Below are positions 11,162 through 64,000 of a stretch of DNA of 64,000 bases, one piece after another (position 1 is the first letter of the stretch; every line of letters starts with the position of its first letter). The stretch is from positions 11,541 to 75,540 of IMG/VR virus record IMGVR_UViG_3300037423_000296; one strand, written 5' to 3'. A program made the position numbers and the translations under genes. A model generated the notes under the pieces. That model was given only the letters and a program-made list of their open reading frames with translations, was not told the origin of the DNA and ran no database searches. The stretch comes from a virus (lineage: Duplodnaviria > Heunggongvirae > Uroviricota > Caudoviricetes).

Positions 11162-11258
11162 ACCTTTCCTGTGTTGGCTGTATGCCGTTGTGCGTGTATC
11201 TGACACGCCATGGCTGAGACAGGGATTGCATGGTCCTGTCTCGCCAAAGTCAGTCAGC
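11162..11258 (-). promoter_or_regulatory. repeated upstream element copy A (cctttcctgtgttggctg ... hairpin gagacagg-N11-cctgtctc ... gtcagtcag)
   Basis: three-copy element with covarying stems. Confidence 0.55.
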
Positions 11259-11745: not shown

Positions 11746-11824
11746 TTCCCTTTCCTGTGTTGGCTGAGTTGCCATGGTTGCGGCAGGGAATGCATGTTCC
11801 TGCCGCACCAAAGTCAGTCAGTCA
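11746..11824 (-). promoter_or_regulatory. repeated upstream element copy B (hairpin gcggcagg-N11-cctgccgc)
   Basis: see copy A. Confidence 0.55.
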
Positions 11825-12399: not shown

Positions 12400-12478
12400 T
12401 CCTTTCCTGTGTTGGCTGAAATGCCATTCGGGCTGACAGCGCATGTCTGTCAGCCCTAGATGACGTGTCAGTCAGTGA
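12398..12478 (-). promoter_or_regulatory. repeated upstream element copy C (hairpin ggctgacag-N7-ctgtcagcc)
   Basis: see copy A. Confidence 0.55.
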
Positions 12479-12743
12479 CCCGCTCCGCATAGGCCAAATC
12501 CTCGCGGTACTGCAAAGCCCATTGGTCACCCGCTGCCTTAACGAACGGATGGAAGTAGGTAGACACGTTGTCATCCGCTGCCACACATCCAACGTTCCAA
12601 CCAACCGTGACCCCATCCGCTTTGAAGCTGAAAGGCTCAGCCACTACGCGGAACAACGTTCCACCTTCGTTCACTACGTCACCCGGTTTCAATTCCGAGT
12701 AGTGCACTCTGTGTGTCGTCATTGCATGTCCTCTCACAGGCAA
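12468..12743 (-). CDS. hypothetical protein
   Basis: ORF track. Confidence 0.5.
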   Translation of the reverse strand: MPVRGHAMTTHRVHYSELKPGDVVNEGGTLFRVVAEPFSFKADGVTVGWNVGCVAADDNVSTYFHPFVKAAGDQWALQYREDLAYAERVTD

Positions 12744-13559
12744 GGCCTACAGACTGTCTGTCTGCCTTGTGAGTGCTAGGCATGCGTCGGAGTCCGCTTG
12801 TTTCGAGTGACTGTCTCCGAGTAGTCACTCACCCTTACCTGTGCCCACATCATCGCGTCGGTGTCTTGCATCCGCGCTAGCGCCATGTCCTAAGGGAACC
12901 TGCCGTGAATAGCATTCCGACCTTGCACGTCAGCCGGAGTATTCCAACGGGCCTTGAGATTCAGTTGTCCTGCTTACCCTGTGCGGGTTGTCCTGCTCTC
13001 CGCGCTTCCCTCGCGTGCCCGATGGGCTGACTTGCGAGTGCCTGTGCTCCGAGCGGAGCGGCTGGCGGGGTGTTTCGGTGTTGCAATGAGGACACTACGT
13101 AGGCCGTAGAGACGCACAAAGTCGTCAAGGCCCATATCCCATCATCGTTATCATTCCGTTATCAAAAACTACGCTCTGTGCATGAAATTAGCGCTCGCTA
13201 TCTACGCAGAGTGAGATTGAGCGTAGACAGTGTGTCAGTCTGTGAGACGGATTGTCTCAGCATTCGAGAAATAACCGACAATGATGTTCAATAAGGCCGA
13301 TTCCGAGCCTGTGCCTATGCAGTGTTTATCTATATGCGCTCCGCACAGGCCTGCCGTGAGCCTGTGAGCCTGCCTAGTGACTGTGCGCCTGTCTCAGCCG
13401 CAGACACTGCCGGTAGGCCTGTCGGCATGCGCTCCGAGACTGCCTGTCAGGTGACTTCGGAGGGTGCCTGTCTGTTGCTACAGGCAACATAGTTACTCAG
13501 AGTGAAAATCGCCTGTAATCGACGTTTAGCCTTCGGTAGGTATGTGACCCTAGCTAGGC

Positions 13560-13990
13560 ACTCTCAATCGCTTAGCAAGCGCTTTCCGAGATAACGCTTT
13601 CCGTAAACAACCTTTCCGATTGAAGCGGTTGTTTGAATCTTGAGCGCAGCACATTCGAACAAATGTTCGTTCGAACAGATTTTCGAAAATTCTCAATTAG
13701 TAAAGGTCCGTTCGTTTAGTAAGTCTGAGGTTACTTAGTAAAGGTTCGTTATTAATCCCGGCGGAATTAGTAAAGAAGCCTTCTTATCTATTCGAACAAG
13801 CGTTCGATTTGGTAAGCGCTTTCCCGGTAAACGCTTTCCGACAACGATTTTCATTCCCAACTGTGGGGGCCGGGGGCCATTTACGAATGGGGCTTACGAA
13901 AGCGGGAGTTTTACGACCGGGACTTTTAAAAGCGGGAGTTACGAATTACGAATTGATTTACAAAAGAGGAAAACCCCGGCTCTTTGCCGG
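13560..13990. repeat. repeat-dense non-coding hub: CGCTTTCCG x4, TTAGTAAAGGTyCGTT x2-3, CGAACA-NN-YGTTCG palindromes x2, TTACGAA x4, AGCGGGAGTT x2
   Basis: direct reading; no ORF >=60 aa from 12780 to 13809. Confidence 0.7.
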
Positions 13991-13998
13991 GGTCTCTC

Positions 13999-14190
13999 TT
14001 AGTATCTGGGAGTCACTGATTTGATTGCACCATCTCCAGCGCCGTGATTTCCGTCAGTCAGTTGCTCAAGAGTTTGCAGCAACGTTTCACGAACGTCATC
14101 CTTGACTGCCTGAGCAGTGTTGTCGATGCCGTAACAAGAAGCCCATTCGTCCTTGTCAACCTCTACAGTGACACTGAAGATTACCTTCAT
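13999..14190 (-). CDS. hypothetical protein
   Basis: ORF track. Confidence 0.45.
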   Translation of the reverse strand: MKVIFSVTVEVDKDEWASCYGIDNTAQAVKDDVRETLLQTLEQLTDGNHGAGDGAIKSVTPRY

Positions 14191-14891: not shown

Positions 14892-14966
14892 GACCGAAAA
14901 TCCTTTCAATTATGAATGCCGACCGAAAATCTGACCGAAAATCGACCGAAATCTTGACCGAAAATC
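14892..14966. repeat. iteron-like array: 5 direct copies of GACCGAAA(A)TC, last four at about 11-12 bp spacing
   Basis: copies at 14892, 14921, 14933, 14944, 14956. Confidence 0.8.
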
Positions 14967-14984
14967 CATTTGAAATCAGATTTC

Positions 14985-17873: not shown

Positions 17874-19306
17874 GCATGAAGGGCTAGATGACCCCCGTTA
17901 AGAACCCATCTAGCCCTAGTGCTCTTCCGCACGACGGTTTGAGCAGTTAACCAATCAGGCACCTGACAAATGCTATTGGTTCTCTGTGCTTCCGGTTGTC
18001 AGCCTCACAGAGTGGGCTTATGCCTCCGTTATCTCAACCACCATTAGCACGGAAGCTACACTAATGGTGTGTAAAAGTGAAGAGAGCCAGCCGACGCATT
18101 GCATCACAGCAAAGCATTCAGTCTAAATGCCTTTCATCGTTGACTAGACGATTAAGCTCTCCCCAACTTGCGCTCCCAGCGGGAGTTGAACCCGCGCTAA
18201 TACATTGACAATGTATCGTGCTGCCGTAACACTTTGAGAGCAATCGCCGGGTTTTGTTAAGTGGCTCCCTGCTAATACCCGGCTGATTAGCAGAAATCTT
18301 GAGCCGATGAGTGAATGCGCCTACCCATTCCACAGGGCTTTAGTACGCATTCGCTAGTGGAATTCCCTAACTCGCCTTGAGCGTCGGGCTAGCCTCACCA
18401 CGTGTTTTTGTCGTTGCCATGACTAGTATTGGCTTTCCCGTCTCGCCAGACGTTCCACGCAATGAGTAACCTTTGACGTTATCGCCGGTTGCGGTCCTTG
18501 AATGCTACCCGGTAAACCGGACATCTTCACCTAACCTCACTGCCGCTCTATGCCTAAGGATGCTATTTATACTCGCATAGACGAGTGTTGAGGCGCATTA
18601 GCTGTCGTATGCTATGCGAATTGATAGGTCAGTCCGGGGCTCGTTCTACAGGTTCCAGCCTTCGCCACTTCAACCCGCTTCCACCCTAACCATTCCATTC
18701 TGGCTCTCCGCACAAGGGACTAGAACCCAAGCTCTCCTCAACGTGTCACCCCATCCGGTTAATTCCGGTCCTGCCAACCCCAGTTAAAGGCTGACTATGC
18801 TTTCCTGCTTAACGGCAGGCCTATACACTAATGGGAAGCTTATGGGGTGGACGCTAAGACCAGTGTTCTTCATTCCGGGCGTACCGGACTTCCACTTACG
18901 TCTCTTATCTAACACAAGACCCCGCAGAATTTCGAATCGGTGCCAGTTCACCCTGTGATTCTCCATTCTGACCCCGGCTTTTTCTAGCAAGCGTGACCAA
19001 GCCACCGGGGATTTGCTTTTGCTGGTGTGGGTGGCGTTTATACACTCTCCCCTAATCCGGGCGTACCCAGAAGCCACATGCCCATCTTGTCTAGTGTTAG
19101 ACCAGCAATTCGCTATTCAGTTGTCAAGGTGTTGCCTAACTTCCTTGGTTTGTATATCTTAATCTTGCCTTGATTCTCGGAGCTTGTCAAGTAGCTGTGG
19201 GAAGTTTTTCATCATCTCGGCCCACTGCTCAGACTCAGCCTTGAGACACTTGGCACACCGCTCCTCGTGCCAACCAGTAGTCTCACTACCCGGCTTGCAG
19301 TCGCAG

Positions 19307-30997: not shown

Positions 30998-31579
30998 TCA
31001 GTTGTCGTCGCTGACGGAAACTCCACCCTCAGGCCATCCCTTTCGGACTCCCCAAGAGCCGTTCACCTTAGCGTGCCACTTCTTCCCAGTCTTGTCAATG
31101 AAGTGCGTGAAACCCTCGCTGTCAGGAAACTCGCTCACAACCCTGAGAGTCATGCCCTGCGGGTTGCAGACGAAGTTACCGAAGGCGAACACCTTCTCGT
31201 ACCACGAAAGCGGCGGGTGAGTCGGCTTACCATCCTCGCCAAGCTTGACAGCGTTGGACGGCTTACCCTCAACGATGACAGCCTCACGACTATTGTTCGG
31301 GGTTGAAGCCTTGCGAATCCGCTTCGGGCCACTTTCAGCCCGCTCCTGCGCCGCAAGAACGTGCGCCGGAAGCTTAAAGACGACACCCTCAGACTCAGCC
31401 TTGGCAATAGCCTCCTTGGCAGCAGGACTCATTCGGCCCCGGCCCATCTTGGCAAGTCCGAGACTCGCGGCATACTCACGCGCAGTCATCTCCGAACGCT
31501 TGTCCATAGTTGCAGTAAGCACTTTCTCTCCTTCAGTAGGTTGTGTCTCAACCCTAACAGACTCAAGTTTGGGAGTCAA
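30998..31579 (-). CDS. protein with Lsr2-type C-terminal-domain-like DNA-binding motif (REYAASLGLAKMGRGRMSPAAKEAIAKA) near N-terminus
   Basis: spacing-identical match to REWARKNGYDINARGRIPFSVMDAFTKA of the Lsr2 at 62317. Confidence 0.55.
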   Translation of the reverse strand: MTPKLESVRVETQPTEGEKVLTATMDKRSEMTAREYAASLGLAKMGRGRMSPAAKEAIAKAESEGVVFKLPAHVLAAQERAESGPKRIRKASTPNNSREAVIVEGKPSNAVKLGEDGKPTHPPLSWYEKVFAFGNFVCNPQGMTLRVVSEFPDSEGFTHFIDKTGKKWHAKVNGSWGVRKGWPEGGVSVSDDN

Positions 31580-31732
31580 GAGCTAGCTCAAAAGAATCCC
31601 GGCGATTATCGCGAGTGCAACAATCGTAAGGATACCTAAACAGCTACCACATCCGCCAGTGTTAAGAGGCAGGGTATCTCTGATTTCCCCCGCCTCTATC
31701 CGGTCGTCTCTTGTCAGAGACCGGTAAAGCAG

Positions 31733-31978
31733 TCACCGAATGGCGACGGCAAGCTCCCGAGCGGTAGCCTTCGGCAGGCGACCCTTCGACGGAACCTCCA
31801 GACCCAGGAAGTCGCCCAGTTCGCGAGCGGTCTTCGGCTGAGTCACAAGGTAGTCAGCGATGACATCTACGGAAACCCGCCCAATGCTGCCGACAGCCTT
31901 TCCAGCCTCACGAGCGTGCTCACGAGCCGCGTTCGCGATGTTGGAGGTGTCCAGTACGAGAGTAGTGTACTTAGCCAT
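31733..31978 (-). CDS. hypothetical protein
   Basis: ORF track. Confidence 0.5.
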   Translation of the reverse strand: MAKYTTLVLDTSNIANAAREHAREAGKAVGSIGRVSVDVIADYLVTQPKTARELGDFLGLEVPSKGRLPKATARELAVAIR

Positions 31979-32030
31979 TTCAGTTTCTCCTTCTTGTTCC
32001 GGTTGTGGGCTTGTTGCCCCGTTGAGTAAG

Positions 32031-32060
32031 ACTCTAGGGCCAGACTGTCTAGCTTGTCAA
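32031..32060 (-). promoter_or_regulatory. promoter TTGACA-N18-TAGAGT
   Basis: consensus match. Confidence 0.5.
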
Positions 32061-32074
32061 CCCTACTTCCCGAA

Positions 32075-32380
32075 TTAGTTTTGGGCAGTTGCCGGAAGGT
32101 AGTAGATGTCGTTGCCTACAAGGTAGGCAGCCTGAGCCTCAGTCACAGGCTGACGAGTCTGGACATCCACATACTTACCGATAGAGCAGACGTAACGAAG
32201 CCGGTTCCACCGTGACACCTCCGCGTGAGGACGGATAACCTTCTCCGTCGCCTCTGTCACGACTCCCCGCAACTTCCCATTGATTGCTACGTCCTGTAGA
32301 ACCACAGTCTTTACCTTGACAACCTTACCCTTGATGTTGAGAGCAAGTCCATCACTGGTTTGATTCACTGCACCACGCAT
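32075..32380 (-). CDS. hypothetical protein
   Basis: ORF track; AGGAGGA RBS. Confidence 0.5.
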   Translation of the reverse strand: MRGAVNQTSDGLALNIKGKVVKVKTVVLQDVAINGKLRGVVTEATEKVIRPHAEVSRWNRLRYVCSIGKYVDVQTRQPVTEAQAAYLVGNDIYYLPATAQN

Positions 32381-32424
32381 TTACGTATCCTCCTGGGGGT
32401 TGGAGCTAATTAACTTGTAGCCAG

Positions 32425-32453
32425 ACACTATCGGTAACTCTCGTGCCTGTCAA
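32425..32453 (-). promoter_or_regulatory. promoter TTGACA-N17-TAGTGT
   Basis: consensus match. Confidence 0.55.
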
Positions 32454-32510
32454 CTCTGTGTGTCTGATTAGTCGCTACTTATCTCGGTGTAATTTCGTAC
32501 TGAGTCTACT

Positions 32511-32684
32511 CGAAAGTGCGTTCGAGTGCAATCTTTCAAACGATTGATTCAATCGAACGTTTGTTCGAATACCTCGCGGGGCTGTCGAACAGGTGTTCGG
32601 TTGCTCGCGGGCACCCGAAACCAATTTTTGCCCTTTACGAAAGGGTCCAAAAGTGTACGGGACTTTTTCGCCCTTTACGAAAGG
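32511..32684. promoter_or_regulatory. regulatory region with CGAAMR-NN-YGTTCG palindromes (32511, 32554, 32586) and two CCCTTTACGAAAGG hairpin motifs 40 bp apart (32631, 32671)
   Basis: direct reading. Confidence 0.6.
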
Positions 32685-32869
32685 TCACCGATTTCGACGG
32701 GACTTAAAATCCGAGATTCGGATTGCTCGTGTGTACGTCGTCGGAATTCCGGCTCCTCGTACTCAATCTCTTCTTCCGGCCAATCAAATTCCACAAGACC
32801 ATACCAGACTTCTGTGCTGGGGTCTACAATTAACTCGACATACATGATGCCTCCCGAGTTAATTATACC

Positions 32870-33283
32870 TCAAAGACCCTCATTATCATATCTGGCATGG
32901 GCACAACGAATCTCTTCGTTCAAGTCCTTGATTTCGTTCTCAGCGTAGGCAAGGTCTTCTTCAAGAGCCCTGATTTTCTCGTATTGAGCGTAGTTGTCAT
33001 CCATGAGAACCCCGCAGTTTTTGCACAAGGTGTCCCAGTTCAGCGCGTCCTCGTTGAGAATTAGAATGCGCGTAGCCATCTCTTCCTGAGAGAACCAACC
33101 AGCCTCATCGTACTGCTGGACAAGCCTCAGTGCCTCCTTAAATGCCGGAAGCTCACGATATCTCTCTTTGAATAGCTCTGCCATATCAGCCCCAGATGAC
33201 GACTTTGGTTTCGACCTGTGGGTCGTCGCCGTACTCGCCGTTCTCGATGTCTTCCCAGGAAGCCGGGTATTCGTCTCCGTCAA
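32870..33283 (-). CDS. hypothetical protein
   Basis: ORF track. Confidence 0.45.
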   Translation of the reverse strand: MTETNTRLPGKTSRTASTATTHRSKPKSSSGADMAELFKERYRELPAFKEALRLVQQYDEAGWFSQEEMATRILILNEDALNWDTLCKNCGVLMDDNYAQYEKIRALEEDLAYAENEIKDLNEEIRCAHARYDNEGL

Positions 33284-33410
33284 CGAACTTCTCCTCCTGA
33301 ATACACCAGATGGTGTCGAAGCCGTTACCCTCTTCGTCCTTCGATTTAATGATGGGCAAGTCCTGGTTGAACTTCAGTAGTTCCTTTACCACATCTCCTA
33401 CGGTGTTCAC
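33186..33410 (-). CDS. hypothetical protein
   Basis: ORF track. Confidence 0.4.
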   Translation of the reverse strand: MNTVGDVVKELLKFNQDLPIIKSKDEEGNGFDTIWCIQEEKFVDGDEYPASWEDIENGEYGDDPQVETKVVIWG

Positions 33411-33592
33411 TCAACACTCCTTAGCTTGTCAGCGTGCTTGATAATCCATCTGGCAAGAGAACTTTCGGCATCTACCAATGCGGCGTATTCAACGTCCTGC
33501 AATTGCCACGCCTCAAACTTCTTCCTCGCCTTGTCATAGGCCTTGCGTGCCTCGGTTGCTCGTGTTATAAGCAGAGCCAGCTTCTCGTTCAT
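33407..33592 (-). CDS. hypothetical protein
   Basis: ORF track; CCTTTCGTAAAGGG motif immediately upstream of ATG. Confidence 0.45.
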   Translation of the reverse strand: MNEKLALLITRATEARKAYDKARKKFEAWQLQDVEYAALVDAESSLARWIIKHADKLRSVE

Positions 33593-33628
33593 TTTACCCC
33601 TTTACGAAAGGTCTCCAGAAGTCATGGA

Positions 33629-33656
33629 GAAACCCGGCCTTTTTCGACCGGGTTTC
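33629..33656. repeat. hairpin gaaacccgg-N10-ccgggtttc (possible terminator)
   Basis: read in sequence. Confidence 0.45.
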
Positions 33657-33727
33657 AACCAGAATACAACCAGATGACCAGAAATGCGACCGAAAATCCA
33701 GCCAAAAGCCCCAGTGTGACTAGAATT

Positions 33728-33943
33728 CTACCCAATAACTAGCAAATCCCTCGGTGCAAACCAGAGAGTGGAAATGCTACGACCAATCTCGTCTCTCGAC
33801 TCTTCAGAGAGGACTACCTTGACGGTTCGCTCGGGGTTGATTGGCCCTCTGTCACGCATCTCGCGGACGTGGCCGAAAAGTGTCTTGGTACCCCACTGAG
33901 ATGTCCATTCTGGTGTGGTTCTGACTCTATCTCCGATGTTCAT
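33728..33943 (-). CDS. hypothetical protein
   Basis: ORF track. Confidence 0.45.
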   Translation of the reverse strand: MNIGDRVRTTPEWTSQWGTKTLFGHVREMRDRGPINPERTVKVVLSEESRDEIGRSISTLWFAPRDLLVIG

Positions 33944-34176
33944 TCTACCTCCACCCGAGTGATTGCTCCACCGTCGTCAATGTAGAAGAAGCCCCCTTCC
34001 TTAGACCCGCCGACTGCCCGGTTACCATGCAAGTCGGGGTAGGCAAGGATGTCTTGAACAGTACAGCCGTTCTCTTTGTCCTGCTCTCGACGGGCATCCT
34101 CGAAGTTCCAAAAGGCTCGTGGTCCTGAGTTCCGACCTTCATAAATCCAAACTATAGCCAAATTGTTATGCCTCAA
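33940..34176 (-). CDS. hypothetical protein
   Basis: ORF track. Confidence 0.45.
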   Translation of the reverse strand: MRHNNLAIVWIYEGRNSGPRAFWNFEDARREQDKENGCTVQDILAYPDLHGNRAVGGSKEGGFFYIDDGGAITRVEVE

Positions 34177-34571
34177 ATCTTGTCGTTATAGAAATCATCA
34201 AGTAGTGAGTCAATGTCCATTACCTCTTCGCCCTCAGGCACCAGAACGCGGGTCTGGTCAAGGAAGAGGCTCACCTCATTGAGCGGGTACAGAACGTTCT
34301 GGTAGCCGCCGTCGAATCGTAGGTGCATGCCTACCATTAGCTGTGTGACCGAAAAACTGATTGAACCTTCACCGGCATATCCCATTGCTCGTTCACGGTT
34401 CACTACCGGCTGTACAGCTTCGCTCAGTAGCTCCCGGCCAAAGATAATGTCCGCGCCGGTCACGTTCTGTAGCCTAATCTCGAATGGTCGAGTCTCGTCG
34501 TAAATGAAATTGGTAACCATTTTCTGGTCACCGCCGACGCCTACATGACCTGTAATTGGGCGTGCAAACAT
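34173..34571 (-). CDS. SsgB/SsgA-like protein (SALP family) homolog
   Basis: recalled alignment to S. coelicolor SsgB: YDETRPFEI.. vs YDTADPYAV.., IIFGRELLSEAV vs WVFARDLLAEGL, SLFLDQTRVLVPEGEE vs SFLKRTDAAVPPGTE; ATG start chosen (track used GTG upstream). Confidence 0.6.
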   Translation of the reverse strand: MFARPITGHVGVGGDQKMVTNFIYDETRPFEIRLQNVTGADIIFGRELLSEAVQPVVNRERAMGYAGEGSISFSVTQLMVGMHLRFDGGYQNVLYPLNEVSLFLDQTRVLVPEGEEVMDIDSLLDDFYNDKI

Positions 34572-34798
34572 GCCCCAGTTCCCCACCTCTCGTGTCCCCT
34601 GCTCCCCCACCTTGCCCTCTGCTGGACACGATGCTGGGAGGAATCCTACCTGTTAAACGGTTTGAGCCGCAAAGCGTTACGTAACGCTTAGGTCTCGGCC
34701 TGTCCACAGCCTGTGGACATCCTATGTCACCTGTAGTGACACTACAAGTCCACGGAGTGACAAGACCGGGTTCCTTTACGAAACCCGGTCTACGACAA

Positions 34799-35686
34799 TT
34801 ACTTACTTGGTGCTACGATGCCAACACCCGAAGAGCCAGAGCAATTCCAGCCAGCGGGAAGAGGACCATTCTTGTTCTGGTCCCAGTTATTCGTGACATC
34901 AAGGCAAAAGCGCTGGTTAGCCTGAGGAGTCAGAATGCCAGACTTCTCACGAATCTCAGCAGTCTTGGCCTCAGTCAAAGCCTTTTGACGCTCAAGCTCA
35001 GCACGAGCCAAATCCTGTTGAGCAATGACAACCTTCTCAATGCTGGCCTGCGTCTTCTCGTCCAAGCCTACATTGGTAACCCGGACATTATCAACTTCAA
35101 GACCATACTTCGCAAAGTCCAAAGAAAGCTGAGTCTTGACGGCTTCAGAAATCTCATTTCCCTTTGCCTGAGCATCAGTCGGAATGTACTTGCCAGCAGC
35201 ATCACGAACTGCTGCCTCGGCACTGTTCTGCACAAGTTCCTTCTGAACCCGCTTAAAGGACTTGTAACGCTCCCACAGAGCCTTGGCTTCCTTGTCAGAA
35301 ATCTTCCAAGAGACGGTAGCAGCAATCGAACCCTGACCGCCGCCCTTGTAAGTGACATTGACGCGGTTCACGTGCACAACGTTGTCATCATTGTCGTCAC
35401 CACCATCAAGGTAGAGAGTCTGAATCTGAGTGCTGAACTCTTCGACCGAAGAAGTCGGGTTGGTCCAGTGGAATCCGTTGTCCAGCGTCTTCTGGTACTT
35501 CCCGAAGCCGGTCTGAATTCCGACAGACCGGGCTGAAACAGTGGTAGCCGAACAGATACCAAAGACCAGCAACCAGAGCATAATAACCGCTCCAGCCGCA
35601 ATCTTACCACCGGTCGTGACGAACGCAAAGCCAATTGATACGACAAATGCAATCGCCAGGATGATGGTCAGAATGATGAACAGCAA
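34799..35686 (-). CDS. SPFH/band-7 (stomatin/prohibitin/HflK-like) membrane protein
   Basis: N-terminal TM segments then band-7 core and coiled-coil (AQQDLARAELERQKALTEAK). Confidence 0.8.
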   Translation of the reverse strand: MLFIILTIILAIAFVVSIGFAFVTTGGKIAAGAVIMLWLLVFGICSATTVSARSVGIQTGFGKYQKTLDNGFHWTNPTSSVEEFSTQIQTLYLDGGDDNDDNVVHVNRVNVTYKGGGQGSIAATVSWKISDKEAKALWERYKSFKRVQKELVQNSAEAAVRDAAGKYIPTDAQAKGNEISEAVKTQLSLDFAKYGLEVDNVRVTNVGLDEKTQASIEKVVIAQQDLARAELERQKALTEAKTAEIREKSGILTPQANQRFCLDVTNNWDQNKNGPLPAGWNCSGSSGVGIVAPSK

Positions 35687-36632: not shown

Positions 36633-37035
36633 AGTGAACCCGCACCTCCTTCAGCACACCGTTCGGGAATAGCCGCTCGAAATCAGCCTTGGCGTCTTCC
36701 AACGAAGTTCCCTCGAAGGTGTACTCTACTGGAGAGTGGCCCACAAGCACAAACTTGTGAGTGTTGCTCTCGGCAGCCTTACCGGCTCCGATGAAGGTCA
36801 AGCTACTGACATTCATGAACGTGTTGAACTTTCCCTTGATATTCGTGTTGTAATAGTTACCGGCAGACCCAGCCTTGATGAATGCGTCCCAAGTCCACGA
36901 AGGAACCTTGGAATATCCATAAAGACCGTTGCCAGAGAACTTCACGAATAGATTCTGCTCGCCTCGGTGATAGTAAGCCACGCTGACAAGCGTGCTGTCC
37001 GGACTGAAGCTATCCGTGTATTTGTAATCTGTCAC
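36625..37035 (-). CDS. KTSC-domain-like protein
   Basis: VKFSGNGLYGYSKVP..AGSAGNYYNTNIKGKF resembles KTSC domain (recalled). Confidence 0.45.
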   Translation of the reverse strand: MTDYKYTDSFSPDSTLVSVAYYHRGEQNLFVKFSGNGLYGYSKVPSWTWDAFIKAGSAGNYYNTNIKGKFNTFMNVSSLTFIGAGKAAESNTHKFVLVGHSPVEYTFEGTSLEDAKADFERLFPNGVLKEVRVHFE

Positions 37036-37325
37036 TCAATTTCTCCCATTCTCAAGAATACCTCTACTTTACCAGATTCAGACTGCTTAAACAAGAGGTG
37101 TCGCATGATTACCTGCGCACTTGTGTTCTTCACATGAGAATTCACGGCTTGGTATTCTACTTCAAACTTTGCCCTGTCTAGTACTGCTTGGATGTCTTCG
37201 GCAGTAGGAACTCTTTGAGACCCGCCGATTTTCCAGGTGAGATTGTGCTTTACGAAAAGCTCCGCAATCTCACCAGCTAGAGCGGTGATGGGTTCGCTTG
37301 ACGGCATCAGATACTCCCTGTGCAA
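37032..37325 (-). CDS. hypothetical protein
   Basis: ORF track. Confidence 0.45.
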   Translation of the reverse strand: MHREYLMPSSEPITALAGEIAELFVKHNLTWKIGGSQRVPTAEDIQAVLDRAKFEVEYQAVNSHVKNTSAQVIMRHLLFKQSESGKVEVFLRMGEIE

Positions 37326-37500
37326 TGTCAGTGCTTCGTAGATTTGGAATGTTGATGACTGGCTTGGAGTCGTCTAGCTTGACACTCTTCACTCCAAAGT
37401 CAGAATCCTCAATGTTGGCAAGCAAATCTCCGAGACGAGAATATACTTCACTCTCGAATTCCGTCTCAATCTCTAGCTCAAGCGTTACTTTCTTACGCAT
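37270..37500 (-). CDS. hypothetical protein
   Basis: ORF track. Confidence 0.4.
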   Translation of the reverse strand: MRKKVTLELEIETEFESEVYSRLGDLLANIEDSDFGVKSVKLDDSKPVINIPNLRSTDIAQGVSDAVKRTHHRSSW

Positions 37501-39442: not shown

Positions 39443-39498
39443 TCCCCTCCTATAAAGAAAAGAGTACCACCCTTACGAGTGGTACTCCAAATCCATAG

Positions 39499-41962: not shown

Positions 41963-42213
41963 TTACGGTACGGCACCGGGTTTGTAGAGCCCTGAATGTG
42001 ACACTTGGTACCGGTCAGTCTAATTGCATCTCGCAGCTTGTATAGGTAATCAGCTAGGCCTAGTTTCTGTGGTTCGCTGAATGATTCAATATTGTCTTTG
42101 TAAACCCGCAACTCAAGGTAATCTTGGTGCTCAACCATATCAACAAAGAACCCCCGATATGGACACTTTGTTGTCTTGAAGATACGCTGAACCTCAGATG
42201 TGTAAAGGCTCAT
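41947..42213 (-). CDS. hypothetical protein
   Basis: ORF track. Confidence 0.45.
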   Translation of the reverse strand: MSLYTSEVQRIFKTTKCPYRGFFVDMVEHQDYLELRVYKDNIESFSEPQKLGLADYLYKLRDAIRLTGTKCHIQGSTNPVPYRKWEGN

Positions 42214-42548
42214 GATACCTTCCTCTCAATTGCATCCCAAATTTCTTGAGTTTTGTGTGAATTCTTGTTCTTGTCTGGCTTACCGGAGCCATTCCAGTAA
42301 ACGCCACCCCAAACGCCAAACTCGCCATTCTGGAGTCCAGCAAAAAAGCAGTCTTTAATGACTGGGCATCCGAGACACACCGCGTCGGCTGCCTTAGCAA
42401 TCTCGGTGTCAGATTCGTATTTGTCGCAGAAAATTTCCGGCTCAAGATGTTGGCAGGCAGCCAAGTGATGCCATTCGAATTCTTCCGGGTCAACTCCGAG
42501 ACTTTCTAGCAGTGAAGACATCCTTCTTGCTAACCTCCCAATTGCCAT
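42210..42548 (-). CDS. whiB: WhiB-like (Wbl) Fe-S transcription factor
   Basis: four Cys (C..C..CLGCP..C) plus GVWGG motif. Confidence 0.8.
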   Translation of the reverse strand: MAIGRLARRMSSLLESLGVDPEEFEWHHLAACQHLEPEIFCDKYESDTEIAKAADAVCLGCPVIKDCFFAGLQNGEFGVWGGVYWNGSGKPDKNKNSHKTQEIWDAIERKVS

Positions 42549-42870: not shown

Positions 42871-42944
42871 TGGAGCCCAATACCTGAGTCGAACAGGCAC
42901 ATCCTCATTACGAAAGAGGCGCACTGCCATTATGCTAATCGGGC
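42871..42944 (-). tRNA. tRNA-Thr (CGU), CCA encoded
   Basis: manual cloverleaf; loop UUCGUAA. Confidence 0.7.
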
Positions 42945-43131: not shown

Positions 43132-43399
43132 AAATTACATAACAAAGCAATAATAGCCGGGGTTCTGTTATTTCATGCAAGCATCTGTCTCGGGTTCTTT
43201 TACGAACCCGGCGATTTCGTTGCCTCCATCGCTGCCCTCTACCCGACATCCTATGGGAATGAAACCGGATGTCTGCTTGAGGTTGCTCCCATCCTACACC
43301 CTGCTTTTTCGGTTGGGCTTAGTGGACGCACCACACGGCTTTCATTCTGGGAGCCCCGAACTTGTCCTCTGCGTTAACCGCAGCGCTCGCATCATGCTT

Positions 43400-54712: not shown

Positions 54713-54790
54713 TGTGGAGTCGCGGGGAATTGAACCCCGGTCCTTTGCATTCAATCGTACATCCGAATTACAGCCATCCCTATTCTTTAG
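54713..54790 (-). ncRNA. tRNA-like fragment (perfect T-arm CGGGG-UUCAAUU-CCCCG; no acceptor partner found)
   Basis: manual reading. Confidence 0.3.
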
Positions 54791-55108
54791 ACCTTTACGA
54801 TTGAAGGTGGTCCCAGGATAAGTCCGTCTACCTCTGGCCTTTTAAACTGATGCCGAGCAGTAGGGGGGGTGAACAGTTTGTAGGCGAAGCCACTGTTCGA
54901 TTTCCACCACTGACCTTTCTGTTCCTAGGCAGTCAGCGCCCGATGCTCAATCCTCAGACTGAAGCAAGGTCGTACTCAGCGCAAAGCGCCTCGTACTCTG
55001 CATCAATGTTGTCAGTTGCAGTTATTGTTTGTCAAGTGTTTAACGACTCTCTCAACGAAGTCGGGCTGCGTTCATACTCTCTAGTTCAAAGTCGATACCT
55101 TTCGACCC

Positions 55109-55423
55109 CTAAGGCAAATATACTTTTGCCAAGTTATTGTCTACAAGTAGTTTATTGAGACTTTCAGTACCGGCGAAAACCTCTGCCAGCCAGCGACCGT
55201 ACTTCTCTTTCTTGTAGGTATTGATTGTAACTGTTGGATTCTTTGCAAAGAAGGACTTTACGAAGGCTGTTGCCTCTGCCCATCCTACCTGACCACGCTC
55301 TGGCGTGTCAATTCCATACAATCTGAAAACCGTATCAACTCTAATATCAAATCCCAGGTCTACTGTTAGTTCTACAGTATCACCATCTACCGCTCTAACA
55401 AAGTCTGCCTTGTATTGGTACAT
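55109..55423 (-). CDS. thermonuclease (staphylococcal nuclease-like, SNase domain)
   Basis: VRAVDGDTVEL..RLYGIDTPE..KYGRWLA motifs. Confidence 0.8.
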   Translation of the reverse strand: MYQYKADFVRAVDGDTVELTVDLGFDIRVDTVFRLYGIDTPERGQVGWAEATAFVKSFFAKNPTVTINTYKKEKYGRWLAEVFAGTESLNKLLVDNNLAKVYLP

Positions 55424-63438: not shown

Positions 63439-64000
63439 TTACAGACGACCGGCTGAGAAGTCTGCGAAAACCTTTGGCGCGTTGCTGTCAAAGCCAACGA
63501 AATCCATCTGGTTCGCGTCCTTAGGGTCGGCCACAGTGTACTCGGTAGCAGCTACACCGAAGCTTGCCAGCTTCGCATTAATTCCCATCTTCTGGCGGTA
63601 GTCGGCCAAGGCCTGGGTAGGCTTACGACCGGTGTTAGCCTCGTTGTCGGTAATCATTGCGAACGTGTCAACCTCAATACGGTTCTTGATAGCGTAGTCG
63701 ATTGCAGCGGAAATGTTCGTTGCTCCGAAGGAACGCTGAACCCTTTGCATTGCACCTTCCAAGTTAGTCTTGGCCGTAATTCCAAGGTCAACGATGCTGG
63801 TTCCGAACCCTACAATCTCGCTGTACTTTTCAGTACGAGCAAGGTTCATTCCCATAGCCGCTGCAACCTGCGCGGCAGAAAGGTCTAGACCGTTAGCAGC
63901 GAATCCGGCCATGGAGCCAGAAACGTCAACTGCGAGCATAGTCCTCTTGCCGGAAGGCTCGACGTGCTTGAAAGCCTCGTAGAAGCCCTCGTTGAGAGCG
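63439..64000 (-). CDS. von Willebrand factor A (VWA) domain protein, 5' end beyond window
   Basis: MIDAS motif DVSGSM; reading frame stays open to the window edge. Confidence 0.7.
   Translation of the reverse strand, partial: ALNEGFYEAFKHVEPSGKRTMLAVDVSGSMAGFAANGLDLSAAQVAAAMGMNLARTEKYSEIVGFGTSIVDLGITAKTNLEGAMQRVQRSFGATNISAAIDYAIKNRIEVDTFAMITDNEANTGRKPTQALADYRQKMGINAKLASFGVAATEYTVADPKDANQMDFVGFDSNAPKVFADFSAGRL

What the first reader, a model, noticed from the sequence alone, without database searches (positions are those of the whole stretch)
32631..33612. CCCTTTACGAAAGG hairpin motif in three 5' leader positions
Exact copies sit at 32631 and 32671, 40 bp apart in the leader of gene 32075..32380. 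A third sits at 33596, 4 nt upstream of the ATG of gene 33407..33592. On the mRNA it reads CCUUUCGUAAAGG(G), a perfect 5-bp stem with a CGU loop. The 3' arm AAAGGGG is where the Shine-Dalgarno sequence should be. That fits a translational operator, or an RNA-binding regulator site, that sequesters the ribosome-binding site.
Basis: partly seen in the sequence, partly recalled or inferred. Interest (0 to 1): 0.6.

Follow-up and report, generated by a model that had tools for sequence, protein, structure and literature searches.

The report
Conserved two-part actinophage regulatory motif
The repeated "hairpin" is real, but it is one lineage's form of a two-part signal about 35 bases long that a whole group of large Streptomyces-type phages place between genes; it looks more like a phage-specific promoter or protein-binding site than a hairpin that hides ribosome-binding sites.

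Summary
The 14-mer is real. Exact copies lie at 32631, 32671 and 33598 (not 33596), far more than chance gives. Genes here run on the minus strand, where the motif reads (G)ACCTTTCGTAAAGGG. The window is a large tRNA-rich actinophage distantly related to Streptomyces Stanwilliamsviridae. Relatives at 40-90% protein identity carry the same element. The invariant part is the linear core (T)TCGTAAAG(G). A second block (TCCCGTGA here, TTCYGGCA in Gilson-like phages) sits at a fixed distance upstream. Non-coding sites are on the sense strand wherever gene orientation is clear, and one tandem pair is conserved. The palindrome is not required: one relative keeps block, spacing and core without it. 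The hairpins of copies 1-3 are no more stable than shuffled controls. Copies 1 and 2 lie about 200-260 nt upstream of a predicted sigma70-like promoter, not at a ribosome-binding site. Only copy 3 overlaps one. In relatives the element also sits directly before tRNA-Gln. In Gilson-like phages the core caps hairpins with covarying stems. Best reading (about 0.4): a phage-specific bipartite promoter-like DNA element. Rivals are an RNA hairpin read by a protein and a stoperator-like DNA operator. The motif did not turn up in my literature searches; interest is moderate.

The parts
32631..32644 (-). Copy 1 (c1). Sense strand reads GACCCTTTCGTAAAGGGC, with core TTCGTAAAG at 32633-32641. It is the downstream unit of the tandem pair.
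   Evidence: Exact match. Invariant in relatives L197, L199, L212, L214 and L169 while the flanks diverge.
32657..32665 (-). Upstream block of c1: AAGTCCCGT. Twelve nt separate CCCGT from CCTTTCG, and 17 nt separate it from CGT.
   Evidence: YYYG[TCG] sits at exactly -21..-17 in 28 of 42 TCGTAAAG sites, against a 2.5% background.
32671..32684 (-). Copy 2 (c2), the upstream unit of the tandem pair, 40 bp from c1.
   Evidence: A tandem pair spaced 34-46 bp is conserved in L019, L169, L197, L199/L201, L212, L214 and L215. L143, L213 and Gilson-like phages have a degenerate copy plus an intact one.
32697..32705 (-). Upstream block of c2: AAGTCCCGT.
33598..33611 (-). Copy 3 (c3). GACCTTTCGTAAAGGGG is followed by TAAA and the ATG of gene 33407..33592. 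The 3' half serves as the Shine-Dalgarno sequence.
   Evidence: Orthologues in L199, L201 and L212 keep the core with 7 nt to the start codon. L197 has a 1-nt insertion in the core.
33624..33632 (-). Degenerate block of c3 (TTTCTCCAT) at the standard distance. Orthologues read TCCCGGTC (L199) and ACCCACGA (L212).
33629..33656 (-). Terminator-like hairpin GAAACCCGG...CCGGGTTTC just upstream of c3.
32708..32724 (-). Hairpin AATCCGA-atc-TCGGATT followed by TTTTAA, just upstream of c2.
34763..34791 (-). A 10-bp-stem hairpin with the core in its loop (AGACCGGGTT-TCGTAAAGG-AACCCGGTCT), after the Band_7 gene 34799..35686.
   Evidence: One search gives -23.3 kcal/mol, z -5.5. One search gives a covariance-model hit at 37.5 bits (this site was in the model's training alignment). 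The L197 orthologue is a canonical terminator with loop TCGTAAAAAGG.
37236..37274 (-). Core at 37248-37256 flanked by a perfect 10-bp inverted repeat (GGTGAGATTG...CAATCTCACC), lying inside overlapping called ORFs.
32425..32453 (-). Sigma70-like promoter TTGACA-N17-TAGTGT for gene 32075..32380, downstream of c1 and c2.
   Evidence: Read. L169 has TTGACA-N18-TAAGGT between the tandem pair and the same gene. Similar sites at 32060-32031 and 30141-30113.
32510..32600 (.). Three SOS-box-like palindromes (TCGAAC-N4-GTTCGA) between c1 and the promoter.
   Evidence: 12 in the window against 2.7 expected, 0 of 100 shuffles. A box directly after c1 is conserved in L197, L199, L212 and L214.
13886..13951 (-). 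Cluster of five TCGTAA boxes with TCCCG blocks, after terminator 13973-13993. It looks like a second, degenerate array of the same element.

Best explanation
The 14-mer is the core of a two-part, orientation-specific cis-element about 35 bp long. In this lineage it reads A-rich / TCCCGTGA / 14 nt / TCGTAAAGG(G). Large Streptomyces-type phages (Stanwilliamsviridae, the window's own lineage and some other actinophage-like contigs) carry it a few times per genome between genes. I think it most likely works on DNA as a phage-specific promoter. The block would act as a -35-like element and CGTAAA(G) as a -10-like element, 17 nt apart. A factor not found in host genomes would read it: a phage-encoded sigma-like or sigma-appropriating protein. 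Transcription would start about 7 nt downstream. That places the start at or just before the adjacent tRNA or start codon, or inside the 3' arm of the hairpin that also closes the upstream gene. The hairpin and palindrome are secondary. Shown: conservation of the core, the fixed spacing, the strand bias and the positions. Inferred: that it is a promoter, and what reads it.
For: (1) The core TTCGTAAAG is invariant at 46 non-coding sites in 11 phage sequences whose flanks have diverged. In phage Gilson it occurs 11 times on the sense strand and once on the antisense strand, against about 0.6 expected per strand. (2) There is an upstream block at fixed distance. In Gilson-like phages G is at -17 in 35 of 46 sites, C at -16 in 29 of 46 and T at -10 in 37 of 46. 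The block's PWM score has median 9.8, against a random 99.9th percentile of 7.8. In the window lineage YYYG[TCG] sits at exactly -21..-17 in 28 of 42 sites against 2.5% background, and it is absent from coding-region copies. The spacer sequence varies while its length does not. (3) Block-to-core geometry matches a -35/-10 pair: 17 nt between CCCGT and CGT, about 22-23 bp centre to centre. A CGT-type -10 is typical of ECF sigma promoters (background in PMC12019637). (4) The placement suits a promoter. Sites follow terminator-like hairpins or stop codons and precede genes. Six to nine nt separate the core from tRNA-Gln in six phages. Tandem copies occur. (5) The palindrome is dispensable. L215 has TATCGTAAAGGG with the left arm lost and the block spacing kept. 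The hairpins of c1-c3 are no better than shuffles. (6) These genomes do embed promoter elements in hairpins. Several TTGACA -35 elements in Gilson sit in hairpin loops or arms, with the -10 right after AAGCTT. (7) The bipartite pattern is at chance level in 185,579 bacterial species genomes, with no hit in Actinobacteria. This points to a phage-supplied reader.
Against: (1) No sigma factor or RNA polymerase was found. Thirty window ORFs were scanned against Pfam, and the Gilson annotation lists none. Only a WhiB-like protein is present, and half of the genome was not seen. (2) TAAAGG or CGTAAA is a poor -10 for the housekeeping sigma, and the block lacks the AAC typical of ECF -35 elements. 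(3) At start-adjacent sites the core plus GAG forms a strong Shine-Dalgarno sequence (6 of 11 sites, against 0 of 35 elsewhere). So transcripts read through the core there, which is awkward if transcription starts downstream of it. (4) At one orthologous site (Gilson 99425 and relatives) the core sits where a -35 would be for a TATACT leaderless-type promoter, so its position relative to other promoter parts is not uniform. (5) In Gilson-like phages the core sits at the apex of hairpins with covarying stems and purines that pair with UU. Sense-strand folds are more stable than antisense folds. That fits RNA-level recognition at least as well. (6) In L184 three units point toward a convergent gene and DnaA boxes.
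Confidence: 0.4

Rival explanations
1. RNA-level element. The transcribed core forms the apex of a hairpin: stem-UUC[GUAAA]GRR-stem', a GNRNA pentaloop like lambda boxB. A linear block lies upstream. A phage protein reads the element. At sites that overlap a Shine-Dalgarno sequence, such as copy 3, binding would repress translation. At other sites it would affect termination, antitermination, processing or stability.
For: Stems covary at 18 Gilson-type sites: 77% of cells paired against 60% in shuffles (0 of 500 reach it), covariation score 0.54 against 0.22, and slid controls at most 0.24. C3-G9 pairs in 35 of 35 sequences, U2-R in 35 of 35 and U1-R in 34 of 35. Positions +10 and +11 are purines in 45 of 46 sites. 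The sense fold is more stable than the antisense fold in 27 of 35 sites, by a mean of 2.9 kcal/mol, Wilcoxon p 6e-5. G-U pairs number 48 of 343 in sense folds against 21 of 316 in antisense folds. The Shine-Dalgarno sequence is built from the core at start-adjacent sites, with conserved spacing. Non-coding sites are sense-strand only wherever gene orientation is clear.
Against: The hairpin may be only the generic gene-end hairpin. Gilson has about 45 GC hairpins followed by AAGCTT, and the core hairpin is usually the only hairpin in its intergenic region. Window-type outer stems show no covariation beyond shuffles. The hairpins of c1-c3 are weak. L215 lost the palindrome but kept block, spacing and core. 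Exact block-to-core spacing with a free spacer sequence is less expected for RNA recognition. No RNA-binding protein was identified. No Rfam family matches.
Confidence: 0.27
2. DNA operator or iteron. A phage DNA-binding protein binds block plus core as an asymmetric two-part site. It would block or modulate transcription in an orientation-dependent way, like the stoperators of mycobacteriophage L5. At the tandem arrays it might instead act in replication or partition.
For: The site is two-part with fixed spacing of about two helical turns. There are several co-oriented intergenic copies per genome. Tandem arrays of 2-4 units spaced 34-61 bp occur. The arrays lie next to other DNA-level sites: SOS-box-like palindromes in the window lineage and inverted DnaA boxes in L184. 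The tandem pair always lies upstream of a promoter-like site and an operon that includes Lsr2-like DNA-binding proteins.
Against: These relatives are lytic phages with no annotated repressor. Strand exclusivity is stronger than most operators need. R rather than a specific base at +10 and +11 fits pairing better than base readout. Array spacing is irregular, unlike iterons. DnaA boxes are not enriched in the window.
Confidence: 0.2
3. Mimic of an anticodon stem-loop. In the window-type form, CCU[UUCGUAA]AGG has the 7-nt anticodon loop of tRNA-Thr(CGU). A tandem pair could bind dimeric threonyl-tRNA synthetase, as the E. coli thrS operator is reported to do (my recollection, not checked in a paper here), or act as a decoy for an anticodon nuclease.
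For: The loop UUCGUAA is identical to the anticodon loop of the phage's own tRNA-Thr(CGU) at 42871-42944. The sites occur in tandem. The phages are tRNA-rich and carry RNA-repair genes.
Against: The 7-nt loop closure is not conserved. Gilson-type sites close on a 5-nt loop or leave an 11-nt loop. About 1 random 7-mer in 16 fits the general anticodon-loop pattern (my estimate). The upstream block is unexplained.
Confidence: 0.03
4. No specific function: a chance repeat or recent local duplication.
For: Only three exact copies in 64 kb, two of them adjacent.
Against: 0 of 100 shuffles reach the count. The core is invariant across relatives with 40-90% protein identity while flanks diverge.
Confidence: 0.02

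Closest known systems
Start-associated sequences (SAS) and extended SAS of Cluster K mycobacteriophages (Pope et al. 2011; from my own knowledge, not checked in a paper here)
   Same: A conserved asymmetric motif about 13 bp long in an actinophage, present in several intergenic copies and co-oriented with the genes. At some sites it lies a few bases before the start codon and contains the Shine-Dalgarno sequence. Some copies have an extra upstream element with inverted repeats. Function is unproven.
   Different: The sequence differs (GGGATAGGAGCCC against TCGTAAAGG). Here most copies are not start-associated: there are tandem pairs far from genes, sites before tRNA-Gln and sites in hairpin loops. 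There is also a second block at fixed spacing.
Stoperators of mycobacteriophage L5 and Cluster A (gp71 repressor sites; from my own knowledge)
   Same: Many asymmetric 13-bp sites in short intergenic regions, all in one orientation relative to transcription.
   Different: Stoperators are single-part and are read by the prophage repressor. These phages appear lytic with no known repressor. The copy number is much lower (about 4-8). The sequence is unrelated.
Phage-specific and alternative-sigma promoters: T4 middle and late promoters (from my own knowledge) and actinobacterial ECF promoters such as sigma-ShbA/SigD, CGTAAC-N16-CGATGA (PMC12019637)
   Same: A two-part motif with promoter-like spacing, placed after terminators and before genes, with strict orientation. 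A CGT-containing element like ECF -10 regions. CGTAA also occurs in the sigma-ShbA -35 element.
   Different: No AAC-type -35. No CGATGA lies 16 nt downstream of the core. No cognate sigma was found. No start sites have been mapped.
Lambda nut sites (boxA plus the boxB GNRNA-pentaloop hairpin bound by N; from my own knowledge)
   Same: A linear block a fixed short distance upstream of a small hairpin whose conserved purine-rich pentaloop (GUAAA against GAAAA) and closing pairs are invariant, on the sense strand, in genomes full of terminator-like hairpins.
   Different: There are more copies. Some overlap Shine-Dalgarno sequences or abut tRNAs. The hairpin is absent or weak in some conserved sites. 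No N-like protein is known. The block does not resemble boxA.

Membership tests
Translational operator hairpin that sequesters the Shine-Dalgarno sequence | The hairpin overlaps the ribosome-binding site of the regulated gene. | tested here: inconclusive
   True for copy 3 and similar sites in relatives. False for copies 1 and 2, which lie 250-300 nt from the ATG and upstream of a promoter-like site. False for the sites before tRNA-Gln.
Translational operator hairpin that sequesters the Shine-Dalgarno sequence | A structure more stable than chance, or supported by compensatory changes. | tested here: not met
   Copy 3: -3.8 kcal/mol, z -0.41. Copies 1-3 against flank shuffles: p 0.20, 0.08 and 0.63. 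Window-type outer pairs show no covariation beyond shuffles. L215 lost the left arm without compensation.
Bipartite bacterial-type promoter (alternative or ECF-like sigma) | Two conserved elements separated by a spacer of fixed length (16-18 nt) and free sequence. | tested here: met
   The block sits at an exact distance: 17 nt between CCCGT and CGT. 28 of 42 sites have it against 2.5% background. Spacer sequences diverge.
Bipartite bacterial-type promoter (alternative or ECF-like sigma) | A cognate sigma or polymerase encoded by the phage or host. | tested here: inconclusive
   No sigma domain in the 30 window ORFs scanned. None is annotated in Gilson. Only 64 kb of this genome was available. 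The pattern is at chance level in bacterial genomes.
Bipartite bacterial-type promoter (alternative or ECF-like sigma) | A transcription start about 6-9 nt downstream of the -10-like element. | not testable with these tools
   Needs 5'-end mapping. The positions of tRNA-Gln and of start codons 7-11 nt after the core are compatible but do not prove it.
Sigma-ShbA/SigD promoter (CGTAAC-N16-CGATGA) | A CGATGA-like -10 located 16-18 nt downstream of CGTAAC. | tested here: not met
   Inspection of the sequence downstream of the cores found no conserved CGAT. The only case is one CGATAA at 19 nt in Gilson 102411. The consensus is from PMC12019637.
Lambda-type nut site (boxA plus boxB) | A hairpin with an invariant GNRNA pentaloop and closing pairs, with variable lower stem. 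| tested here: inconclusive
   Met at Gilson-type sites. In the window type a CGU-triloop register is equally possible, and L215 has no hairpin.
Lambda-type nut site (boxA plus boxB) | An N-like arginine-rich antiterminator, with sites placed between a promoter and terminators. | not testable with these tools
   No candidate protein was identified, and the transcript architecture is unknown.
Cluster K SAS | The motif lies 3-8 bp upstream of start codons, and its sequence is GGGATAGGAGCCC. | tested here: not met
   Only a minority of sites are start-adjacent, and the sequence is unrelated.
L5-type stoperator | An asymmetric site, many copies in one orientation, read by a phage repressor. | tested here: inconclusive
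   Orientation bias is met: 11 to 1 in Gilson, and all non-coding sites are on the sense strand where orientation is clear. No repressor gene is known and copy number is low.
Intrinsic (rho-independent) terminator | A GC-rich hairpin directly followed by a U-tract. | tested here: not met
   Copies 1-3 are followed by GGGC-AAAAA or by the start codon. The L197 orthologue of site 34774 does fit, and so does the variant at 39462-39487.
Rfam RNA families | A match to a curated covariance model. | tested here: not met
   Only two sub-threshold chance hits in 31500-35500.

The most novel reading that the evidence does not exclude
The element is an RNA signal of the nut type. A boxA-like block and a boxB-like GNRNA-pentaloop hairpin (C-GUAAA-G) would be read by a small phage protein. 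That protein would make RNA polymerase read through the many inter-gene hairpins of these genomes, and would repress translation where the hairpin overlaps a Shine-Dalgarno sequence. This would be N-type antitermination in actinophages, outside the lambdoid phages.
Probability: 0.1. Interest if true: 0.8.

Novelty: new variant of a known kind. Interest (0 to 1): 0.45.

Why it matters
Gene regulation is largely uncharted in large lytic Streptomyces phages of the BE/BK type (Stanwilliamsviridae) and their uncultured relatives, which carry dozens of tRNAs and hundreds of small genes of unknown function. This analysis defines a short cis-element with an invariant core and fixed geometry. It gives a map of sites in several sequenced phages, including Gilson, Comrade, Faust, Sham and Blueeyedbeauty. 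That is a concrete handle: the element marks a small regulon, including a conserved tandem site upstream of an operon that encodes Lsr2-like proteins. It can be tested directly by 5'-end mapping, reporters and pull-downs. If it is a promoter, it points to an unidentified phage factor that redirects the host RNA polymerase. If it is an RNA signal, it would be a new protein-RNA switch in actinophages.

Tried and rejected
1. Nucleotide similarity of 31500-34500 to 50,697 phage records: none, in near or distant mode.
2. The search for related loci with the 101-aa and Band_7 proteins in IMG/VR: nothing. Relatives were found by an exact motif scan instead.
3. Near-identical metagenome contigs L001-L005: 99% identical, so uninformative except for a 2-bp indel.
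4. Rfam: no family.
5. Literature: no paper pairs this motif with phages. Stanwilliamsviridae papers were listed by title and abstract only, not read.
6. The core as a -35 element for TAnnnT or for sigma-ShbA CGATGA: the downstream element is not conserved and the spacing varies from 14 to 19 nt.
7. Sigma-54-like and housekeeping -10 readings: rejected on sequence.
8. A covariance model built from Gilson-type sites (R1): at E below 0.01 it recovered only its own training sequences. The weaker hits were mostly sites already found by the core scan, all on the sense strand. Copies 1-3 of the window were not detected.
9. Metagenome scan for tandem 12-mers: 30 hits, mostly unrelated (a coding PPFVK repeat, and GGGGGATTTT hairpin arrays between convergent genes). 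I take these as chance for a 12-mer. Only the hits sharing the TCCCGTGA block were used.
10. Genome scan for the bipartite pattern: 10 hits in unrelated taxa, about the number chance gives by my estimate.
11. DnaA boxes in the window: not enriched.
12. The upstream AT-rich inverted repeats as a conserved second hairpin: the pairing register is inconsistent between sites, so I dropped it.
13. The 101-aa protein downstream of the tandem site as a candidate reader: no Pfam or PHROG hit. The AlphaFold model is confident (pLDDT 90) and all-beta, but has no PDB match at E<=0.001 (best E 1.4).
14. The phage WhiB-like protein has no AT-hook.
Full report
**1. The observation**

CCCTTTACGAAAGG occurs exactly at 32631, 32671 and 33598 on the + strand. 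A fourth site at 13877 has 2 mismatches. Shuffles expect 0.44 matches, and 0 of 100 reach 4.

Nearly all genes from about 6.3 kb to the end of the window run on the minus strand. The sense form is therefore (G)ACCTTTCGTAAAGGG. In copy 3 the run GGGG is followed by TAAA and then the ATG of gene 33407..33592.

Copies 1 and 2 are 250-300 nt upstream of the ATG of gene 32075..32380. That gene has its own AGGAGG Shine-Dalgarno sequence. It also has a TTGACA-N17-TAGTGT promoter-like site at 32453-32425, which lies downstream of both copies. A TTGACA promoter-like site (N18, TAAGGT) also lies between the tandem pair and the same gene in relative L169.

The hairpins are weak. The copy 3 hairpin is -3.8 kcal/mol with z -0.41. 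With the core fixed and the flanks shuffled, copies 1-3 give p = 0.20, 0.08 and 0.63.

**2. What the window is**

- It carries 32 tRNA genes and a tmRNA.
- It encodes rIIA and rIIB, Lsr2-like proteins, a DUF932 protein, an SsgA-like protein, a WhiB-like protein and a fragment of a Ro60-like protein.
- Its rIIA is 36% identical to that of Streptomyces BE/BK-cluster phages of the family Stanwilliamsviridae.
- It has no nucleotide-level match in 50,697 phage records.

It is an uncultured, distant relative of those phages, known otherwise only from metagenome contigs.

**3. Relatives carry the same element**

An exact scan of IMG/VR recovered syntenic relatives at 50-70% amino-acid identity: L019, L016, L024 and L143. 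Protein-anchored fetches then added:

- Gilson-like phages: L148-L151, Comrade (L152) and the whole Gilson genome (L160-L162);
- Faust and Sham;
- Jay2Jay and Rhodococcus phage Trina;
- closer relatives of the window lineage: L197, L199-L201, L212-L215 and L169.

The invariant sequence across all of these is the linear 9-mer TTCGTAAAG, or TCGTAAAG in the widest set. It is not the palindrome.

In Gilson the core occurs 11 times on the sense strand and once on the antisense strand, against about 0.6 expected per strand. Five copies are intergenic, between 87.8 and 104.6 kb. The GC-39% group (L154, L155) has no core copy in the parts held. Trina also has none, and Jay2Jay has two near its left end.

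**4. Anatomy of the family**

*A second block at fixed distance.* Over 46 non-coding sites, positions -23..-9 relative to the first T of the core read wTTyCGGCrnRnTTT. G is at -17 in 35 of 46 sites and T at -10 in 37 of 46. A block-only PWM scores a median of 9.8, against a random 99.9th percentile of 7.8. The PWM was trained on the same sites, so the gap is somewhat inflated.

In the window lineage the block reads (A)AGTCCCGT(G/C)A. The same block occurs in other actinophage-like contigs: L183, L188, L184, L185 and L176. YYYG[TCG] sits at exactly -21..-17 in 28 of 42 TCGTAAAG sites, against 2.5% background. The exceptions are coding-region copies, hairpin-loop copies and near-variants. The 12-nt spacer diverges between close relatives, while block, core and spacing stay the same.

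*Orientation.* Every non-coding site is on the sense strand wherever gene orientation is clear.

*Positions.*
- After a stop codon or a terminator-like hairpin.
- Six to nine nt before tRNA-Gln in six phages.
- Seven to eleven nt before a start codon. Here the core plus GAG makes the Shine-Dalgarno sequence AAAGGAG. GAG follows the core at 6 of 11 such sites and at 0 of 35 hairpin-type sites.
- As a tandem pair spaced 34-46 bp, conserved upstream of a TTGACA promoter-like site and of the homologue of gene 32075..32380. An Lsr2-like gene follows within the next one or two genes.

*Hairpins.* In Gilson-like phages the core caps a hairpin whose stems covary. 77% of cells are paired against 60% in shuffles (0 of 500 reach it). 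The covariation score is 0.54 against 0.22, and slid controls reach at most 0.24. The best register is stem-UUC[GUAAA]GRR-stem'. C-G pairs in 35 of 35 sequences, and the two U-R pairs in 35 of 35 and 34 of 35.

Sense folds beat antisense folds in 27 of 35 sites (Wilcoxon p 6e-5), with more G-U pairs on the sense strand. So an RNA hairpin is under selection there.

That hairpin is usually the only hairpin in its intergenic region. Gilson has about 45 generic hairpins of the form "GC stem + AAGCTT" after genes. Several of them hold the TTGACA -35 element of a sigma70-like promoter in the same way. The hairpin can therefore be the generic gene-end hairpin, with a second signal lodged in it.

In window-type sites the outer stems do not covary. 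In L215 the left arm is lost (TATCGTAAAGGG) while block, spacing and the downstream GGGC-AAAA are kept.

**5. The copies in the window**

- **Copy 3.** Orthologues in L199, L201 and L212 keep the core. The Shine-Dalgarno sequence improves to AAAGGAG, and 7 nt to the ATG or GTG are kept. L197 has a 1-nt insertion in the core and an 8-nt insertion before the ATG.
- **Copies 1 and 2.** They are conserved in all close relatives, usually followed by an SOS-box-like palindrome.
- **Further members.** Site 34774 sits in the loop of a 10-bp-stem hairpin (-23.3 kcal/mol, z -5.5). Site 37248 has a 10-bp inverted repeat around it. Looser variants lie at 39462-39487 and 43191-43210. A cluster of five TCGTAA boxes with TCCCG blocks lies at 13886-13951.

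**6. Mechanism**

Three models remain.

*Promoter (my choice, about 0.4).* It explains the fixed two-part geometry, the strict orientation, the placement after terminators and before genes or tRNAs, the tandem copies, the dispensable palindrome and the absence from bacterial genomes. Against it:
- no sigma factor or polymerase was found (Gilson annotation);
- the hexamers are unusual;
- the core is used as a Shine-Dalgarno sequence at start-adjacent sites;
- the core's position relative to a TATACT -10 at one orthologous site is inconsistent.

*RNA hairpin read by a protein (about 0.27).* It explains the apex position, the R-U pairing, the sense-strand bias in fold stability and the Shine-Dalgarno overlap. 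It copes poorly with L215, with the weak window hairpins and with the exact block spacing.

*DNA operator of the stoperator type, or iteron (about 0.2).* It fits the neighbouring DNA-level sites: SOS-like boxes in the window lineage and inverted DnaA boxes beside three units in L184. It also fits the tandem arrays.

An anticodon-loop mimic is a low-probability curiosity. UUCGUAA equals the anticodon loop of the phage's own tRNA-Thr(CGU).

**7. Comparison with known systems**

The nearest described things in actinophages are the Cluster K start-associated sequences and the L5 stoperators (both from my own knowledge, not checked in a paper here). The element shares with them orientation, intergenic position and, in part, the link to start codons. 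It shares neither their sequence nor their architecture.

It resembles ECF-type promoters in spacing and in having a CGT element. It is not a sigma-ShbA promoter: no CGATGA lies downstream (PMC12019637). It resembles lambda nut in having a block plus a GNRNA hairpin. Full-text searches (97 papers contain the 9-mer; the 10 top-ranked that were listed are unrelated to phage regulation) found no description of the motif.

**8. Verdict**

The feature is real and conserved. The general function is unresolved between a DNA-level and an RNA-level signal, and I lean toward a phage-specific promoter. I rate it a new variant of a known kind, of moderate interest.

Noticed in passing
window 32510-32600 and 13655-13807: SOS-box-like palindromes (TCGAAC-N4-GTTCGA, which I recall as the actinobacterial LexA-box consensus) are enriched: 12 against 2.7 expected, 0 of 100 shuffles. 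They cluster in the same two non-coding regions that hold the motif. One box directly after copy 1 is conserved in relatives L197, L199, L212 and L214. This suggests coupling of phage gene expression to the host SOS response, or a phage protein with the same specificity.
   Followed up: partly
window about 12500-14000: A large, mostly non-coding region after terminator 13973-13993. It holds five TCGTAA boxes with TCCCG blocks (13886-13951), CGGAAAGCG repeats, TTCGAAC palindromes and many ACAGGC repeats (13300-13500). Gilson (120.3-122.0 kb) and Faust have comparable gaps of 1.5-1.8 kb without annotated genes, and the Gilson gap holds a variant core (ATCGTAAAGGG). It may be a regulatory hub or an origin.
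   Followed up: partly
window 14921-14974 and 33676-33706: Tandem 11-12-bp repeats of GACCGAAAATC (sense strand GATTTTCGGTC). There are four copies at 14.9 kb and two to three copies about 70 nt upstream of copy 3. The unit resembles the upstream block of Gilson-like phages (ATTTTCYGGC).
   Followed up: no
window 40217-62166: Thirty-one tRNA genes and a tmRNA gene (54714-55109) lie here, all on the minus strand and interspersed with small ORFs. One more tRNA lies at 18170.
   Followed up: no
window 63439-63939: This ORF matches the Ro60 vWA domain (E 7.6e-45). It is probably the C-terminal part of a Ro60-like RNA-binding protein, like the 'RNA-binding protein' gp106 annotated in Gilson. A Y-RNA-like gene might lie nearby.
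   Followed up: no
window 34173-34610, 42210-42548, 31733-31978, 30998-31579: Phage-encoded SsgA-like protein, WhiB-like protein (no AT-hook) and two Lsr2-like proteins. SsgA-like proteins point to a sporulating, Streptomyces-like actinomycete host.
   Followed up: partly
L160-L162 (Streptomyces phage Gilson), e.g. record positions 108737, 109481, 110190, 116614: About 45 sense-strand 'GC-rich hairpin + AAGCTT(CC)' elements follow genes (51 hits on + against 17 on -). Several sigma70-like promoters have their TTGACA inside such a hairpin and their -10 directly after AAGCTTG. This compact terminator/promoter design and the AAGCTT tail are unexplained.
   Followed up: partly
L184 6560-6745: Three tandem block+core units are followed by TTGACA and by an inverted pair of perfect DnaA boxes (TTATCCACA / TGTGGATAA). 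The contig is actinophage-like (DUF932, Lsr2-like, L5 gp82-like), and the units point toward a convergent gene. This may be an origin.
   Followed up: partly
window 32675-32845: The C-terminal part of this 56-aa ORF differs between near-identical metagenome strains by a 2-bp (AC) indel that shifts the frame (52 against 56 aa). Its overlap with copy 2 (stop codon in the motif loop) is therefore not constrained.
   Followed up: yes
window 32075-32380: The 101-aa protein downstream of the tandem site has 17 homologues at 65-100% identity. Its AlphaFold model is confident (pLDDT 90) and all-beta, with no Pfam or PHROG hit and no PDB fold match at E<=0.001 (best E 1.4).
   Followed up: yes
window 11163-11189, 11200-11257, 11749-11821, 12401-12427: A 58-nt direct repeat (81% identity) and three copies of CCTTTCCTGTGTTGGCTG, spaced about 590-650 bp apart. 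I did not examine them.
   Followed up: no
window 37273-37500 and 37032-37325: Two called ORFs overlap by about 50 nt in different frames around the hairpin that carries the core at 37248. The start of the downstream ORF is doubtful. In relatives this position is an intergenic site: core hairpin, then TATACT, then 6-7 nt, then ATG (leaderless-type).
   Followed up: partly
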